Of a stretch of 64,000 nucleotides of DNA, positions 16,747-63,888 are shown one piece after another (positions within the stretch are counted from its first letter, which is position 1; every line of letters begins with the position of its first letter). The position numbers and the translations under genes were made by a program. Origin of the DNA: Lingula anatina (Eukaryota; Animalia; Brachiopoda); NCBI GenBank assembly GCA_051362555.1, contig CM120646.1:4464001-4528000 (forward strand). Direction: 5' to 3'. The notes under the pieces were generated by a model. It did no database searches. It saw only the letters and a program-made list of their open reading frames with translations, and was not told the origin of the DNA.

Positions 16747-19700
16747 CTAGGAGGCCATCACAGCTGCGTACTCTACTCTGTCGTCGCTGGGGTTTACGGT
16801 TAACGTTTTTGACTTAGCTGATCCTGTTCCTTTAGAGCTGGACGACTTGGGGTTATCATGTAGTGTCAAATCAGCATAGTGGATGTTCTCTACGTTCTTG
16901 TCAAGGGGCTGGAATGACCAAATTCTTATATATACTCTAGAGCACCAAGAGATGTAAAATATGAAAAGTATAAAAGTAGTTGCAGCATAGGGTACTCCTA
17001 TAAAAATAATGAAAAACATACTTATGTACCACGTCTGTCTTCCATAAAAATGTGACCAAGTACATGTTAAAATACATGTGCATGTATGCCTATTGTTACT
17101 CCATATACTCAATTGAAAGTATTTTCATGACGTACACTACTTACGTTGCTCTTCCTCCTGTCATCTATATTCTCTGCGTTCTGTTCAATAGGCTGAAATG
17201 AGATCAACACTTTTTAGTTGTTTTGTAGCGGTATTTTTATCAAATACCACAGACCTATGTTTCACGTCTGTCTTTTTTAAAATGTTACCGAATATCTGTT
17301 AAAATATATGAATGTCGACTGTTAATCCATGTCCTCAATATTTTTTTTCATGAGAGTATCAGAGCCACATTACTTTAGTTGCTCTTCCTCATTTCATCTG
17401 TATTCTCTGCGTTCGTGTTGATAGGCTAAAAATAGGCGACTTTTATAGTGATAAGGAAAAGTGAAGGTGTTCACTTGATTTTTAATTAGATATACAGGAA
17501 TACATGCAAGGCATTTCAAGTAATGATAGTGTTAAAGATATCGAATAATGCTCAACATCAGCATTTACATATAATTAGTTGATTTCTGTGCCTTCCTACA
17601 GGCACCGCTACAACAAGACGAGTTTGTTGTTCACAAGAGGCCTATATGACTTTATTAACATCATATTAAAACAATAAACAGTCCTACTCACATAACTCTT
17701 TCTGTACGTGGCTTTCTTCTGGTCGATATCTGATCAATAAGATATGAAAAAAATCAATAAGTGCCCCAGAATTTGTCGTTCAAACCTTGAACATATATTA
17801 ACACAAAATTTTAAGCTAAACACTGTAAAACAGTGTTTAGCATTTAAATACATACAACACACGTTTAGCACCTGAACGTATTTAGAAATATGTGTAAAAG
17901 CTTAACACGCATAGCTTTTCAGGCTTGTCACAGAAGAAAATGCTAGACACGTTTGGCAGTGTCACACGTTAAGCTATGTGTCTAGCTTCATCGGTATATG
18001 ACACTATAATAGTTTATCACAAGGCTAAGCACATTGGCTAAGAACTTCCCCTGCTAAGCGCGTGGAACTGCTAAACATATGGAGCTGCAATTGAGAAGAG
18101 CCGAGTGTTAGTACAGCTTCGACCTAAATATGGCGGACCCACATGAAAGGAAGACCGCTTAATCCTGTAACGGTCTTTCCACCTCTCACACGCCCCCCCC
18201 CCCCCCTCACGCGTCGTCCCTGCAGGGGTACAGTAATTAAATATCGGCTCGATTAGACTAGTCGAGGGACAACGCGTGGGGAGGCGTGTGAGAGGCGGAG
18301 AGACCATTACAGGATTAAGCAGTCTTGCTTTCATGTATGTCCGCCATCCGATTTGGCTTAACAGCTCCTCTTGTAAATGTGTGGAGATGTTGAAGGCGTG
18401 GAGCATCCTGCTCGAACGCTTTCTTCCTTGCAGTAACATGTGCTTGTTTAAAGTAGGCCCATTAAAGATGCATACAAAGTCATTTTGGCCACAAAAAACA
18501 ACCAAATGCAGGCATATAGTTTCAAACAGTATAATTTAGAGAATTACCAAAAGACATTGTTTAATATTACCTAAAAAATGATATTTGGATGGATTTTTCT
18601 GCTAGCTTACTATCCTGTATATACACGGGGCAGAAAAGTAGGTCACATAAGTAGGTTGAATTTTCTGACCAAAAATTTAAAGAAAAGAGCAGTCTTAAGT
18701 TTTTTTATGGCTGATCAAATGGTTTATTAACTTTATACCTTGGCATGTCGACTTTATTTTAGTCGCAAAAGAATCTAGTAGAAGTGGATTATATGTGTTA
18801 CTGGCAATCAACATTATGGTAACGTTATGGGTGTTTTTAACTCCATGCAAATTATGTCCCAGCCAAGAAAAAAATTATAGTAACGTTATAATTTGTAGAA
18901 AGATTCTAAGACCGTTTCTACAAAATTTTATGATAACGTTATTTTGTGGAGTTTTATCAGCGTTTTTATAACATTCTGGAAACACATATAATGTTTTGAA
19001 AACCTTTTTTTTATAAATAACCAAAACATGTCTTATGCTGTTTGAACTTCAATTAGCGGTTAATTCCAAAATGGGCTTGGGGTAAGTCGGCGACTAGAGC
19101 AGTGCGAATTGTAGAATATTCGGACTATCGGTACCGAAATAACCAGCATGTGATGAAAGCTTAAATAAACTACAGACTTGACATTTAATATGGAAAATTT
19201 TTTCCAAATCATTTTTCATCAGTTTTTTCCTATTTAGCTGACTGATAACTTAAAATAAGAATTAAAATCGTGTTTTCACAACTTTAAATTACCTTTTTGA
19301 TGTCATTGTGACATCAGTTCATTAATGGAATTCGCCAGAGAAGCAAACAAAAACACATTGCCTGTTCTATGTCATACGACAACCATTAAAAGAGATATTT
19401 TGGACCTCCATATTTTCCAAATTATTGTCTGTAAAGGAGTTACACGCTCCACAAAGGACCCTCATGTCAGTGTCTAGTCACAGTAACGGCTGCTATTACG
19501 CATGACCTCTTCTGGCTGCTTACAGCGCTCTCAAGTGGCAACGGATTCCTTGGAATAGGTTTTTAAAGTTCAATCTGGAATAACATTCCAGGCATCGGTC
19601 AAAATCTGTCCAATTTGGTCCAGTTTTGTTGTAGGACACGTAGGCCATTGATTCGGCTAGTAATGCCCTACCCACATATTGTCTATGTGGTTCAAACATG

Positions 19701-22700
19701 GCGGTTTTGATGACCAAGGTAGCTGCTCATTTCCTTGGTTCTGTAAGTAATCTGCTATTAAAACTGCTCTGTAAGAACCGGCAATCTCACCGTGCAACCT
19801 AAAATTATTCCTAAGTTGCCCCCTATCAAATGATAGCCAAATGGTTCCCAGACTATTTCTTTATTTGATCTGGTTCAGGTTTTCGTCGATGACTACCATT
19901 GGTGTTTTGGCACCAATGTGATATCCGATCCAAATACTGACGCTGATAATGACCTTAGTCACTTTAGACGCGGCACACGCTTCGTCGTTGGCCTCTTCTG
20001 GATGTCTGTAAACTCTGTTTTGACTGTTGAGCGGTACAGGTGAAACCTGACCTCAATAAAGAAAGCCACGAGATTTCAGTGTTCAACCCAGAAACAGTCA
20101 AGGTCCCCAATTCATTAGAGAAACATACAACGATGTTTTGCTGTTTACAGTTGGTTCCTTTGAGGTCATCTGGTATTCTTACCTGCTGAAACCAGTTTGG
20201 TGTTCGCTAAGGGTCTTGAAAAGTGCGTTTTGGTGGCAATTTACCCCTCATTCTGAACGGACTGGGTGGCTTTTTTTTAGTTGCACCAGCATATCCCGAA
20301 CGACAGTGGGTCCTATGCCCTGGTGGTAAGATTTCAATACATTGGGTGTGGCCTTTGTGTAGTTACATCAGTCTGGGCATTACTCTATAAAACTGTGCGG
20401 ACCGTTTCGTTTGGCACAATTATCTGTCTGGCAATGCCTGGCTTTTTAGCGCCATTCTGCCACAGATGAACACATTTGTAAATCACTGCATAGCCCACTT
20501 TACACACTGCAAACCCGACCACTTGCATGCAAAATTTCAAATTCTTCTATGCAGTAGTTACCGACATACTTTTTTGACAGAACCATGCTTTGCCAAACCC
20601 AAGCTTTGACAAGCCCAAAGGAGCACTACCCAATTAAATCACTGCATATTACATAATGCAGCAGCGCAACAAACCTGGTATTCAGTTAATTGGTAGCGAC
20701 ACACCTGACTACACACTTCTCCATTCACATATCTTATATGAGATCGGAGTTTGTGAAAAAAGCATTTTCACCTAGGCATATCTTCGAAACTGAAATATTC
20801 CATATTAAATGAGTCTGTATTAAAATGAATACCCCACCAAGATTCTGATGTTCTATTGTTCATTACTTCCGGAAAAAATAAACAGACATCAATTACCGTA
20901 ACGCATATTATCAAAATATGAAAAAAGTGTTTAAAAGTAAAAGTGATAGTTGTTTCGTGTCTTTAGAGAACTAGTGAATTTTCCTAACTTGTGTTTCAGA
21001 AATACATTCCAATAAACTACCTCGCAAGGTCAGCTAACGCAAGGATGAATAAGTCCAGCTGTAAATGTGATGGTGCGATGTTAACGACGTTGACAGTTCA
21101 CGGTACCCTGTTATAGATAGAAGTTAAATGTGACCGTGACTTCGTGTGTGTGTGTGTGTGTGTGTGTGTGTGTGTGTGTGCGCGCGCGCCCGCGTGCGTT
21201 TGTGACTAAAACAGTTGGAACCCTAAGCACCTAAAAGTTAAACAAATACACCCTACATTTATTAGGCGTCAAACGCGTCAAAGCGTTTAACATGTTAAGG
21301 AGCTAAACGTGCTTAGGGGCTAAACGCGTCGAAAAAAATGAGACAAAACAGGCGCTTAGAAATGTGTTTAGGAGCTAAACACTGTTTTTACAGTGTACAA
21401 TTTTGGTGGACACTTTAATCTGCCAAAGAGTAAATTACTAACCTGATGTGGAATTCCCTTTGCTATTCTTTTTCACACAAGTGACCGCGACGATGATGAT
21501 GGTAATCAACAGCACCCCTCCCCCGCCTCCGGCGCCGATGGTGATAATAGTCTCTTTGGATAATCCGGCACGTGGTGGGTGTGAGCTACTTGTTATACGG
21601 GCTATAATGAAAAGAATCTTCGTCAATCAGCTGATAGTTTGGGACAGAACGGGTTCATTATAGTTATTCAAACCTTGTTGTACATATACCTGCATAACAA
21701 CAAACACTGTAAAAACCTGCGCTTCGATCGTAATCTTGTGGCCATCTCATTGTGCGACCCTTAAGATACAACCAATTCAATACTAACAACACATCTTTTC
21801 ACTTTCCAAGGCTATCGTCTTTCGTCAAACGTAAGTAAAACGTTATCTCCTGATGAAAGTATTGGTAAAGGACATGTAAGGCCTAACATAGTGAATTATT
21901 GACACTATAATATGCACATTAAAACCTATGGGGACTGTACCATATGTACCTTGCAGTAGGAAATGTTGCACTGATGAACCTACCTTAATGATAGAAAGGA
22001 CACCTTTATGTACGTAACAGAATGATTTTGTTTCTGAAGAATAATGCATTCGGAATCTGATTTATTTTCAGGTTCTTGTTGCTTATAAAGGTATTGCTAT
22101 CTGCAATTAATTCTCCATTCAAATTACAAAGCAGCATATACTGAATATTACAAGAGAACAACCATTGCTACCGTATAGGCGAGCAAAACATATAATTACC
22201 ATTTATTGTACTGACTTTAATACCCGTGCTTGTAATATAGGCCTTCGACGTTGTAAATGATGTTGTTAAAGATCGTGGATCTGTAATGACAATATAATGC
22301 CCTTTTACAAAAAAGAGATTGCGTTTCATATCGCTAACAAAATGGTTTAAGCTGGGACTTTTCCCATGACTATTATTTTCAAATACCATTTACTTTGAAA
22401 ACGTTTATATATTAAATACGAATTTCCTTGAAAAAGATGGTAGTACTTTTACTTTGCTTGCAAAATGTTTGTATGATTATATTGTATGATTATACGGAAA
22501 GAGAACGTCATTGCACAATTTCACGTGATACAATTAACGTGTCTCGAACGCTTTGCGAACATCAATATACCATGCAGACCTATCATTAAGGTGGGTTCAT
22601 CAATACAATATTGGTCAGAAAGGTTGTCCCACCCAAAATTCCACGTGCTTTTATTTACAAATGATCACCTCACAGGAGTAATTTGTTATAAACAGTGCTT

Positions 22701-63726: not shown

Positions 63727-63888
63727 CTAGGAAGCCATCACAGCTGCGTACTCTACTCGTTCGTCGCTCGGGTTTACGGTTAATGTTTTTGACTTAGCTG
63801 ATCCTGTTCCCGTCGAGCTGACCGACTTGGGGTTATCATGTAGTGCCAAATCAGCATAGTGGAGGTTCTCTACATTCTTGTCGAGGGG
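63727..63888 (-). CDS. Gene A3: terminal exon of a third Ig-ITIM receptor copy (rest of the gene lies beyond the window)
   Basis: Intact acceptor and ORF PLDKNVENLHYADLALHDNPK...ERVEYAAVMAS*; both ITIMs are preserved. Confidence 0.8.
   Translation of the reverse strand, partial: PLDKNVENLHYADLALHDNPKSVSSTGTGSAKSKTLTVNPSDERVEYAAVMAS

What the first reader, a model, noticed from the sequence alone, without database searches (positions are those of the whole stretch)
16747..63888. Head-to-head paired receptors: an ITIM receptor and a receptor tyrosine kinase sharing nearly the same Ig domain, in a tandem array
Seen in sequence: gene A (Ig-TM-2xITIM, minus) and gene B (Ig-TM-tyrosine kinase, plus) start 165 bp apart, and the cassette repeats (A1/B1, A2/B2, A3...). 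The 99-aa Ig cores of A1 and B1 differ at only 9 positions, while signal peptides, stalks, TMs and tails are unrelated. Established: vertebrate paired immune receptors (SIRP, Siglec-5/14, Siglec-11/16, LILR, KIR) share ectodomains but signal oppositely, with activation normally via ITAM adaptors. Inference: this is an invertebrate paired-receptor module in which one ligand engages both a kinase and a phosphatase-recruiting receptor, possibly for immunity or self/non-self recognition. I do not recognise this architecture as a described family, but cannot verify novelty without a search.
Basis: partly seen in the sequence, partly recalled or inferred. Interest (0 to 1): 0.95.

Follow-up and report, generated by a model that had tools for sequence, protein, structure and literature searches.

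The report
Brachiopod kinase–brake paired receptor array
In what is likely a lamp-shell (brachiopod) genome, a repeated back-to-back gene pair gives a receptor tyrosine kinase and a receptor with two phosphatase-docking motifs almost the same antibody-like outer domain, so one ligand would likely press accelerator and brake together; but each complete pair in this window has one broken partner, and the RNA examined showed no transcript.

Summary
The architecture is real, with two corrections. Gene A (signal, V-set Ig, TM, two ITIMs; minus strand) and gene B (V-set Ig, TM, tyrosine kinase; plus strand) start 165 bp apart in both cassettes. The A1/B1 Ig cores differ at 9 of 100 residues, under purifying selection (dN/dS 0.12). 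But only A1 (269 aa) and B2 (698 aa, two Ig domains, all catalytic motifs) are intact. B1 has lost its TM and ATP-binding exons; A2 has lost its Ig exon. No intact pair lies in the window. B2's second Ig exon carries an A-type splice flank, showing sequence exchange between partners. A distant Lingula anatina RefSeq paralogue confirms the V-Ig-kinase layout. Four RNA runs gave no read on the A1/B1 5' exons; tissue and population are unknown. Best reading (0.5): an invertebrate paired-receptor system evolving by birth and death, with an intrinsic kinase as the activating arm. Precedents: head-to-head Siglec-11/16, Botryllus FF/FcoR pairs, sponge RTK/SAML. The scan noted the same layout in the next window and, with a predicted dead kinase, in a likely acorn worm (unchecked). 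New variant of a known kind.

The parts
24561..24612 (-). A1 exon 1, signal peptide (first ATG 24612; a second in-frame ATG at 24603)
   Evidence: GT donor, phase 1, hydrophobic stretch KD 1.36
23958..24308 (-). A1 V-set Ig exon
   Evidence: Pfam V-set E 5.9e-6; AlphaFold pLDDT 75.9; V-set fold, best Z 11.9
21443..21601 (-). A1 stalk + transmembrane + basic stop-transfer exon
   Evidence: AG/GT, phase 1-1, KD 2.28
17692..17729 (-). A1 first cytoplasmic exon (two non-ITIM tyrosines)
   Evidence: counterpart in A2 at 49626-49663
17145..17192 (-). A1 optional 48-nt phase-0 mini-exon; a decayed copy with a stop lies at 17374-17425
   Evidence: counterpart in A2 near 49068-49112; inclusion is inferred
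16747..16908 (-). A1 last exon with ITIM1 IHYADL (16867-16884) and ITIM2 VEYAAV (16759-16776), tyrosines 36 aa apart
24613..24776 (.). 164-bp intergenic stretch between divergent start codons, presumed bidirectional promoter (cassette 1)
   Evidence: 148 of 164 identical to cassette 2, no more than flanking introns at 84-92%
24777..39459 (+). B1: kinase pseudogene. Signal and Ig exons (25321-25725) are open; TM to Gly-loop deleted at about 27645; later frameshifts. At most a short secreted Ig product
48678..51951 (-). A2: ITIM-receptor pseudogene (stop at codon 3, donor lost, Ig remnant near 51575-51661, TM frameshift, ITIM2 Tyr>His)
51952..52115 (.). 164-bp intergenic stretch of cassette 2
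52116..61867 (+). B2: intact 14-exon, 698-aa receptor tyrosine kinase (signal, V-Ig, V-Ig, stalk, TM, juxtamembrane, kinase)
   Evidence: all 13 introns GT-AG and in phase, no internal stop; motifs [25 protein letters not shown]; Pfam PK_Tyr_Ser-Thr on 5 of 5 kinase exons scanned
53649..54044 (+). B2 first V-set Ig exon (B-type 5' end)
56914..57318 (+). B2 second V-set Ig exon, with A-type acceptor and about 55 nt of A-type intron flank, and B-type 3' end
58088..58173 (+). B2 transmembrane exon
   Evidence: KD 3.16
63727..63888 (-). A3 last exon with both ITIMs intact (LHYADL, VEYAAV); the rest of the gene runs off the window

Best explanation
This is a tandem array of divergent gene pairs in which a receptor tyrosine kinase (B) and a two-ITIM receptor (A) carry nearly the same V-set Ig domain, and it likely works as a paired activating/inhibitory recognition system. 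Shown: the architecture, the 165-bp start-to-start distance, intact catalytic motifs in B2, two ITIMs in A1 and A3, purifying selection on the shared Ig, exchange of an exon flank from A to B2, and loss of one partner in each cassette. Inferred steps: (1) one bidirectional promoter would express A and B in the same cell; (2) a ligand would cluster B, which would autophosphorylate its activation-loop and juxtamembrane tyrosines and signal; (3) the same ligand would bring in A, whose two ITIMs would be phosphorylated by B or a Src-family kinase; (4) a tandem-SH2 phosphatase (SHP2/Corkscrew type) would dock and dephosphorylate B, setting a threshold. In this haplotype the working partners would have to be A1 with B2 or with genes further along the array. 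Fast turnover suggests immune or self/non-self recognition.
For:: A1 and B2 are open, GT-AG, in phase. A1/B1 Ig dS 0.33, dN 0.039, dN/dS 0.12 (Fisher p 4e-7); A1/B2a 0.29; A1/B2b 0.22; ITIM exon A1/A3 0.20 (p 0.004); the same Ig is only 27-29% identical to that of the paralogous Lingula kinase P0049, so 86-91% identity between A and B needs recent copying. B2's second Ig exon shares 25 identical bases across the acceptor with A1 and A2, 45 of 54 bases of near intron with A2, and a 30-nt exon segment with A2 that A1 lacks, while far intron matches only 20 of 45; this is the pattern of within-pair conversion; two ITIMs in 0.6% of shuffles. Precedents for the logic: PMC5701461, PMC12582321, PMC11926128.
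Against:: zero depth on A1 exon 1, Ig and TM exons and on B1 exons 1, 2 and Ig in 4 of 4 RNA runs laid (44.9 million records read; about 6, 6, 6 and 25% of each run; 4 of 9 runs listed) at 88% likeness. B2 Ig1 is 96% like B1's and should have been laid too. Neither cassette has two intact genes. A1's Ig is no closer to its own partner B1 (26 of 300 nt) than to B2b (25 of 300), and 17 sites are private to A1, so homogenisation is not continuous. Low dN/dS could reflect fold constraint acting on each gene separately. The intergenic stretch is no better conserved than introns. No ligand, SHP homologue or partner for P0049 was shown. SHP2/Corkscrew usually promotes RTK-to-ERK signalling (own knowledge), so ITIM need not mean brake.
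Confidence: 0.5

Rival explanations
1. A is a positive co-receptor or transmembrane scaffold. It would heterodimerise with B through the shared Ig surface, be phosphorylated by B, and deliver SHP2/Corkscrew to amplify Ras-ERK output, for example in wound repair or epithelial growth.
For: Same anatomy. A shared Ig would preserve a dimer surface as well as a ligand site. SHP2/Corkscrew acts positively downstream of many RTKs (own knowledge). Botryllus head-to-head FF/FcoR pairs are proposed to heterodimerise (PMC12065747, passages). B's kinase insert and C-terminal GEKL recall the wound-healing kinase Cad96Ca/Stitcher (recalled, not tested).
Against: Each cassette lost a different partner, which obligate heterodimers tolerate poorly. 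Tandem expansion with frequent pseudogenes is more typical of recognition receptors (PMC9546547, passages). No transcript seen.
Confidence: 0.2
2. Historical exon shuffle without functional coupling: an Ig exon was copied once between neighbouring unrelated genes, the block was amplified by unequal crossing-over, and the array is now largely silent or decaying, with A and B acting independently.
For: 2 of 4 complete genes are broken. No exon reads. A-B Ig dS (0.24-0.33) is as deep as A1/A3 tail dS (0.25), and A1 does not group with its own partner. Introns are full of LINE and transposon-like insertions. No close relative in protein databases.
Against: A1 and B2 keep 6 and 14 exons fully in frame with dN/dS well below 1. 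Both ITIMs are kept in A1 and A3. A later A-to-B2 exchange is visible. The 165-bp spacing is kept in both cassettes. The scan noted the same layout in a distant phylum (unchecked).
Confidence: 0.25
3. Assembly or gene-model artefact: the pairing, or the lesions in B1 and A2, come from mis-assembly of a repetitive array, or the exons do not join as modelled.
For: No whole genome to cross-check; no RNA joint seen.
Against: The copies differ by 8-16% in introns, with independent insertions, and are not collapsed duplicates. B2's 13 introns are all GT-AG and in phase. An independent RefSeq model, XP_013413611.1, has the same V-Ig-TM-kinase layout.
Confidence: 0.05

Closest known systems
SIGLEC11/SIGLEC16 (PMC5701461; abstract and passages read)
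   Same: Head-to-head genes; ITIM receptor plus activating receptor with near-identical V-set ectodomain kept alike by gene conversion; frequent null partner that can donate sequence to the working gene.
   Different: About 9 kb apart, not 165 bp; activation through the adaptor DAP12, not an intrinsic kinase; the partners arose from one Siglec, whereas A and B are unrelated outside the Ig; a single pair, not a tandem array of pairs.
Botryllus fester family / fester co-receptor pairs (PMC12582321 and PMC12065747; passages read)
   Same: Invertebrate IgSF genes encoded head-to-head, co-expressed, duplicated and lost as gene pairs; one member carries ITIMs; genotype-specific presence and expression.
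   Different: No kinase ('tyrosine kinase' occurs 0 times in either main text); activation by hemITAM; partners are not described as near-identical in the Ig domain.
Geodia cydonium RTK and SAML (PMC11926128; parts 1-2 of 7 and passages read)
   Same: An Ig-domain receptor tyrosine kinase and a kinase-less receptor with the same IgV-IgC1 ectodomain design, linked to self/non-self recognition. From memory of Blumbach 1999 (not held), SAML has an ITIM and Ig domains highly similar to the RTK's: the closest functional precedent if right.
   Different: V+C1 tandem against V or V+V here; kinase gene without introns in the kinase domain (PMC5793068, passage) against 7 kinase exons; genomic head-to-head arrangement not described in what I read; no sequence relationship shown.
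Lingula anatina XP_013413611.1 and XP_013415522.1, 'FGFR3-like' (P0049, P0073)
   Same: Single V-set Ig with the same extra Trp-Cys...Glu-Cys pair, similar TM start, juxtamembrane tyrosines, kinase 49% identical to B2.
   Different: Ig only 27-29% identical; long mucin stalk; no ITIM partner found (one search, limited to proteins under 386 aa). A distant paralogue, not the orthologue.
Hydractinia Alr family (PMC9546547; passages read)
   Same: Clustered V-set receptors with ITIM or ITAM tails; many pseudogenes and unexpressed but intact models (6 of 41 models intact yet unexpressed).
   Different: No kinase partner; different domain layout.

Membership tests
Paired receptors (definition in PMC5701461) | High ectodomain homology between the two members | tested here: met
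   Ig cores 86-91% identical between A1 and the three B Ig exons
Paired receptors (definition in PMC5701461) | Opposite signalling modules (ITIM against activating) | tested here: inconclusive
   Motifs present: two ITIMs in A, complete kinase motifs in B2; direction of signalling not assayed
Paired receptors (definition in PMC5701461) | Overlapping expression | tested here: inconclusive
   No exon reads for either gene in 4 of 4 runs laid; tissue and population unknown
Paired receptors (definition in PMC5701461) | Shared ligand | not testable with these tools
   No ligand known
Paired receptors (definition in PMC5701461) | Sequence exchange between partners | tested here: met
   A-type acceptor, near intron and a 30-nt exon segment shared by A2 and B2's second Ig exon; not continuous across the core
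Receptor tyrosine kinases | Signal peptide, single TM, tyrosine kinase domain with Gly-loop, Lys, HRD and DFG | tested here: met
   B2 only; not met for B1
ITIM receptors | [I/L/V/S]xYxx[I/V/L] in a cytoplasmic tail (consensus from PMC9546547) | tested here: met
   IHYADL and VEYAAV in A1, LHYADL and VEYAAV in A3
ITIM receptors | Phosphorylation-dependent SHP/SHIP binding | not testable with these tools
   Needs a bench assay
FGFR (RefSeq label of paralogue P0049) | Three I-set Ig domains with acid box and twin activation-loop tyrosines (features recalled) | tested here: not met
   B2 has two V-set domains and one tyrosine in the activation-loop exon; FGFR kinases are merely the best-scoring single solved kinases for P0049
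Cad96Ca/Stitcher kinases | Cadherin ectodomain (recalled) | tested here: not met
   Ectodomain is V-set Ig
Cad96Ca/Stitcher kinases | Kinase groups with Cad96Ca in a tree | not tested
   No Cad96Ca sequence was obtainable; resemblance of the kinase insert and C-terminal GEKL is recalled only
Siglecs | V-set domain with sialic-acid-binding Arg on strand F and no canonical B-F disulfide (recalled) | tested here: not met
   Canonical B and F cysteines present, no Arg on strand F in 4 of 4 Ig exons
Geodia RTK/SAML system | IgV(EV)-IgC1 tandem ectodomain | tested here: not met
   Only V-set domains here; described layout in PMC11926128
Botryllus FF/FcoR | IgV-sushi-IgC2 ectodomain, hemITAM activation | tested here: not met
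   No sushi or C2 exon in A1 or B2 models; layout from PMC12065747

The most novel reading that the evidence does not exclude
A head-to-head cassette that couples a catalytically active Ig receptor tyrosine kinase to an ITIM receptor with the same binding domain is an ancient, repeatedly used form of paired immune or allorecognition receptor, present in brachiopods, probably hemichordates and sponges. It would be the adaptor-free forerunner of vertebrate ITAM/ITIM pairs, with whole pairs duplicated, exchanged and lost between individuals to vary specificity.
Probability: 0.3. Interest if true: 0.9.

Novelty: new variant of a known kind. Interest (0 to 1): 0.68.

Why it matters
Vertebrate paired receptors activate through ITAM adaptors and soluble kinases. 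Here the activating arm is itself a receptor tyrosine kinase, tied to its predicted brake by a promoter of under 170 bp and multiplied as a unit. If it works so, it extends activating/inhibitory pairing to lophotrochozoans, where I found no described case in ten literature searches. It also gives a two-gene system in which shared ligand, cross-phosphorylation and SHP2 recruitment can be tested directly, and it suggests re-reading orphan 'FGFR-like' Ig kinases of invertebrates as recognition receptors.

Tried and rejected
Whole genome: none held, so the rest of the array, SHP homologues and DNA support could not be searched. Word-seeded protein searches with the A1 Ig exon (122 candidates, 0 scored) and a B2 kinase exon (16 candidates, 0 scored) found nothing; weak evidence by the tool's own note. 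HMMER profile of the four Ig exons: 72 hits at E<=0.001, none at 1e-30; a motif screen of all 72 found 1 kinase (P0049); of 4 ITIM-tailed hits looked up, 3 were frog proteins and 1 a fish protein. Search for a short ITIM partner of P0049 (50 candidates, 0 scored) is inconclusive, because a partner with the mucin stalk would exceed the 385-aa limit. Metagenome scan: 272 pattern matches, 0 confirmed. Sequencing-run search: no RNA holder listed. Fold and PDB searches gave only generic V-set matches with tied scores and 8-23% identity, so no ligand class can be read off. The A-Ig/B-Ig complex prediction did not run because the queue was full; nothing follows from that. Scan look-ups by sequence, near and relatives were blank. 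Literature searches showed no paper on a brachiopod or lophotrochozoan RTK/ITIM pair; subscription journals are mostly absent, Blumbach 1999 and PMC10073891 were not held, and no supplements were read. Rejected: B1 as a working kinase; FGFR, Siglec or Cad96Ca membership; a conserved promoter signal; a canonical ITAM in B2's juxtamembrane region (YELP, YCEI).

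
Full report
Setting. The window is AT-rich, intron-rich animal DNA. No whole genome is held. Unchecked scan notes call this genome a brachiopod. The only kinase among 72 profile hits to the Ig domain is a Lingula anatina protein, which agrees, though it is a distant paralogue and does not fix the species.

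What is in the sequence. Self-comparison shows a repeated block: A1/B1 at 16.7-39.5 kb, A2/B2 at 48.7-61.9 kb and the end of A3 at 63.7-63.9 kb. A1 (minus strand) has six exons with GT-AG borders in phase and encodes 269 aa: signal peptide, V-set Ig, short stalk, TM and a 92-aa tail. One 48-nt exon is optional; the frame holds without it. The tail has two matches to the ITIM consensus given in PMC9546547 (passages), IHYADL and VEYAAV, with tyrosines 36 residues apart; 0.6% of 100,000 tail shuffles give two. B2 (plus strand) has 14 exons, all 13 introns GT-AG and in phase, and encodes 698 aa: signal, two V-set Ig domains, stalk, TM, two juxtamembrane tyrosines and a kinase with Gly-loop, Lys, HRD and DFG intact. 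The start codons are 165 bp apart in both cassettes.

B1 is not a working kinase. A deletion joins the first 38 bases of its TM exon to the alphaC exon; the 1.25-kb B2 segment holding TM, juxtamembrane, Gly-loop and Lys has no counterpart in B1; the fused exon runs into a stop; later exons have a lost acceptor and 2-nt and 14-nt deletions. A2 has a stop at codon 3, a lost donor, only a remnant of the Ig exon, a 47-nt deletion in the TM exon and Tyr-to-His in ITIM2. So 2 of 4 complete genes are intact, in different cassettes, and 0 of 2 cassettes are doubly intact.

The shared Ig. Over a 100-aa core A1 differs from B1 at 9, from B2-Ig1 at 14 and from B2-Ig2 at 12 positions. Nothing else in A1 resembles B2 (best E 1.8). 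All four exons are V-set by Pfam. The A1 model (pLDDT 75.9, six-row alignment) matches V domains generically: CD28 Z 11.9, rmsd 2.5, 106 aligned; B7-H6, Siglec-15 and amphioxus IgVJ-C2 are tied with it. A second cysteine pair is invariant in all six aligned domains; a disulfide is inferred. Synonymous sites have drifted while the protein has not: A1/B1 dS 0.33, dN 0.039, ratio 0.12, p 4e-7; A1/B2 ratios 0.22 and 0.29. The paralogue P0049 is only 27-29% identical in the Ig and 49% in the kinase, so the A-B likeness needs recent copying.

Exchange between partners. B2's second Ig exon has the acceptor of the A genes: 25 identical bases across the junction, 45 of 54 near-intron bases shared with A2, falling to 20 of 45 further out where A1 and A2 still share 39 of 45, and a 30-nt exon segment shared with A2 but missing in A1. 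I read this as copying from an A gene into B2; an ancestral two-Ig B with later collapse in B1 is not excluded. Against continuous homogenisation: A1 is no closer to B1 (26 of 300 nt) than to B2-Ig2 (25), and 17 sites are private to A1. The intergenic 164 bp is 90% conserved between cassettes, like introns at 84-92%.

Expression. No RNA holder was listed; nine runs were offered by species label. Four were laid on 21300-25765 at 88% likeness: 44.9 million records, 6-25% of each run. Only intronic repeats were covered. Depth was zero on A1 exon 1 and Ig, on the TM exon bins, and on B1 exons 1, 2 and Ig, with no splice joint. B2-type Ig reads should also have been laid (96% like B1). This counts against abundant expression in those samples. 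It does not refute the genes: tissues are unknown, the runs were not shown to come from a population that carries this array, and no close copy exists in the protein collection that holds the L. anatina proteome. In Hydractinia six intact Alr models were unexpressed.

Mechanism. I commit at 0.5 to an antagonistic pair: co-expression from one promoter, shared ligand, B activation, phosphorylation of A's ITIMs by B or Src, recruitment of a tandem-SH2 phosphatase that damps B. All four steps are inferred. Rivals: a positive co-receptor delivering SHP2 (0.2; SHP2's positive role downstream of RTKs is own knowledge), an uncoupled or decaying exon-shuffle product (0.25), artefact (0.05). The complex prediction did not run because the queue was full.

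Comparison. SIGLEC11/16 lie head-to-head about 9 kb apart, share the V-set region by conversion and often lose the activating partner, which signals through DAP12 (PMC5701461; abstract and passages). Botryllus FF/FcoR genes lie head-to-head, are co-expressed and vary in copy number as pairs, with ITIM or hemITAM tails and no kinase (PMC12582321, PMC12065747; passages). Geodia has an Ig-RTK and the kinase-less SAML with the same IgV-IgC1 design (PMC11926128; parts 1-2 of 7 and passages), both up-regulated after grafting (PMC2248247, passage). That SAML bears an ITIM and near-identical Ig domains I recall from Blumbach 1999, which was not held; 'ITIM' does not occur in PMC11926128. Passages of PMC11999971, PMC5620054, PMC6982143, PMC12018476, PMC7916673, PMC12723187 and PMC5793068 added no closer case. 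The system works like a paired receptor but is not a member of any of these families, nor an FGFR despite the RefSeq label of its paralogue. The likeness of the kinase to Cad96Ca is recalled and untested.

Novelty. Ten searches of an open-access library showed no description of an RTK/ITIM head-to-head array in a brachiopod or other lophotrochozoan; subscription papers and supplements were not seen. The scan has unchecked notes of the same layout in the next window and of a similar pair with a predicted dead kinase in a likely acorn worm; these are leads, not support. Verdict: new variant of a known kind, interest 0.68, held down by the broken partners and missing transcripts.

Noticed in passing
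window 60587-60858 (B2) and 33992-34126 (B1): The 3' end of a kinase exon, with its GT donor, is tandemly repeated in 69-bp units (about 4 copies in B2, 2 in B1). Every later donor is in phase and would add 23-aa repeats of the alphaF region, probably inactivating the kinase: a possible splice switch.
   Followed up: partly
window 19168-20819 and 54293-55937: The same 1.65-kb element (86% identical) sits in an A1 intron and in the B2 intron between the Ig exons, in the same sense relative to each gene. It looks like a decayed Tc1-type transposon (recalled motif; Pfam gave no hit).
   Followed up: partly
window 24777-27733: If spliced, B1 would give a roughly 200-aa secreted signal-Ig-stalk product, a possible decoy; more likely degraded. 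No reads seen.
   Followed up: partly
window 25878-26882 and 39899-45981: LINE remnants: an endonuclease fragment in a B1 intron, and a broken endonuclease/reverse-transcriptase element between B1 and A2.
   Followed up: partly
window 17145-17425 and 49064-49358: The small phase-0 cytoplasmic exon of A is duplicated in both A1 and A2, with one copy decayed.
   Followed up: partly
P0049 against P0073: The two L. anatina paralogous kinases differ at 10 of 117 Ig residues but 7 of 290 kinase and 1 of 115 TM/juxtamembrane residues: faster change in the binding domain.
   Followed up: partly
window 1-8750: Strongly strand-skewed satellite arrays (37-44 bp units); the array lies just beyond them.
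   Followed up: no
window 16738-16908 against 48678-48839: The last exons of A1 and the pseudogene A2 are 98% identical while neighbouring introns are about 75-85% alike, suggesting recent conversion between A paralogues.
   Followed up: partly
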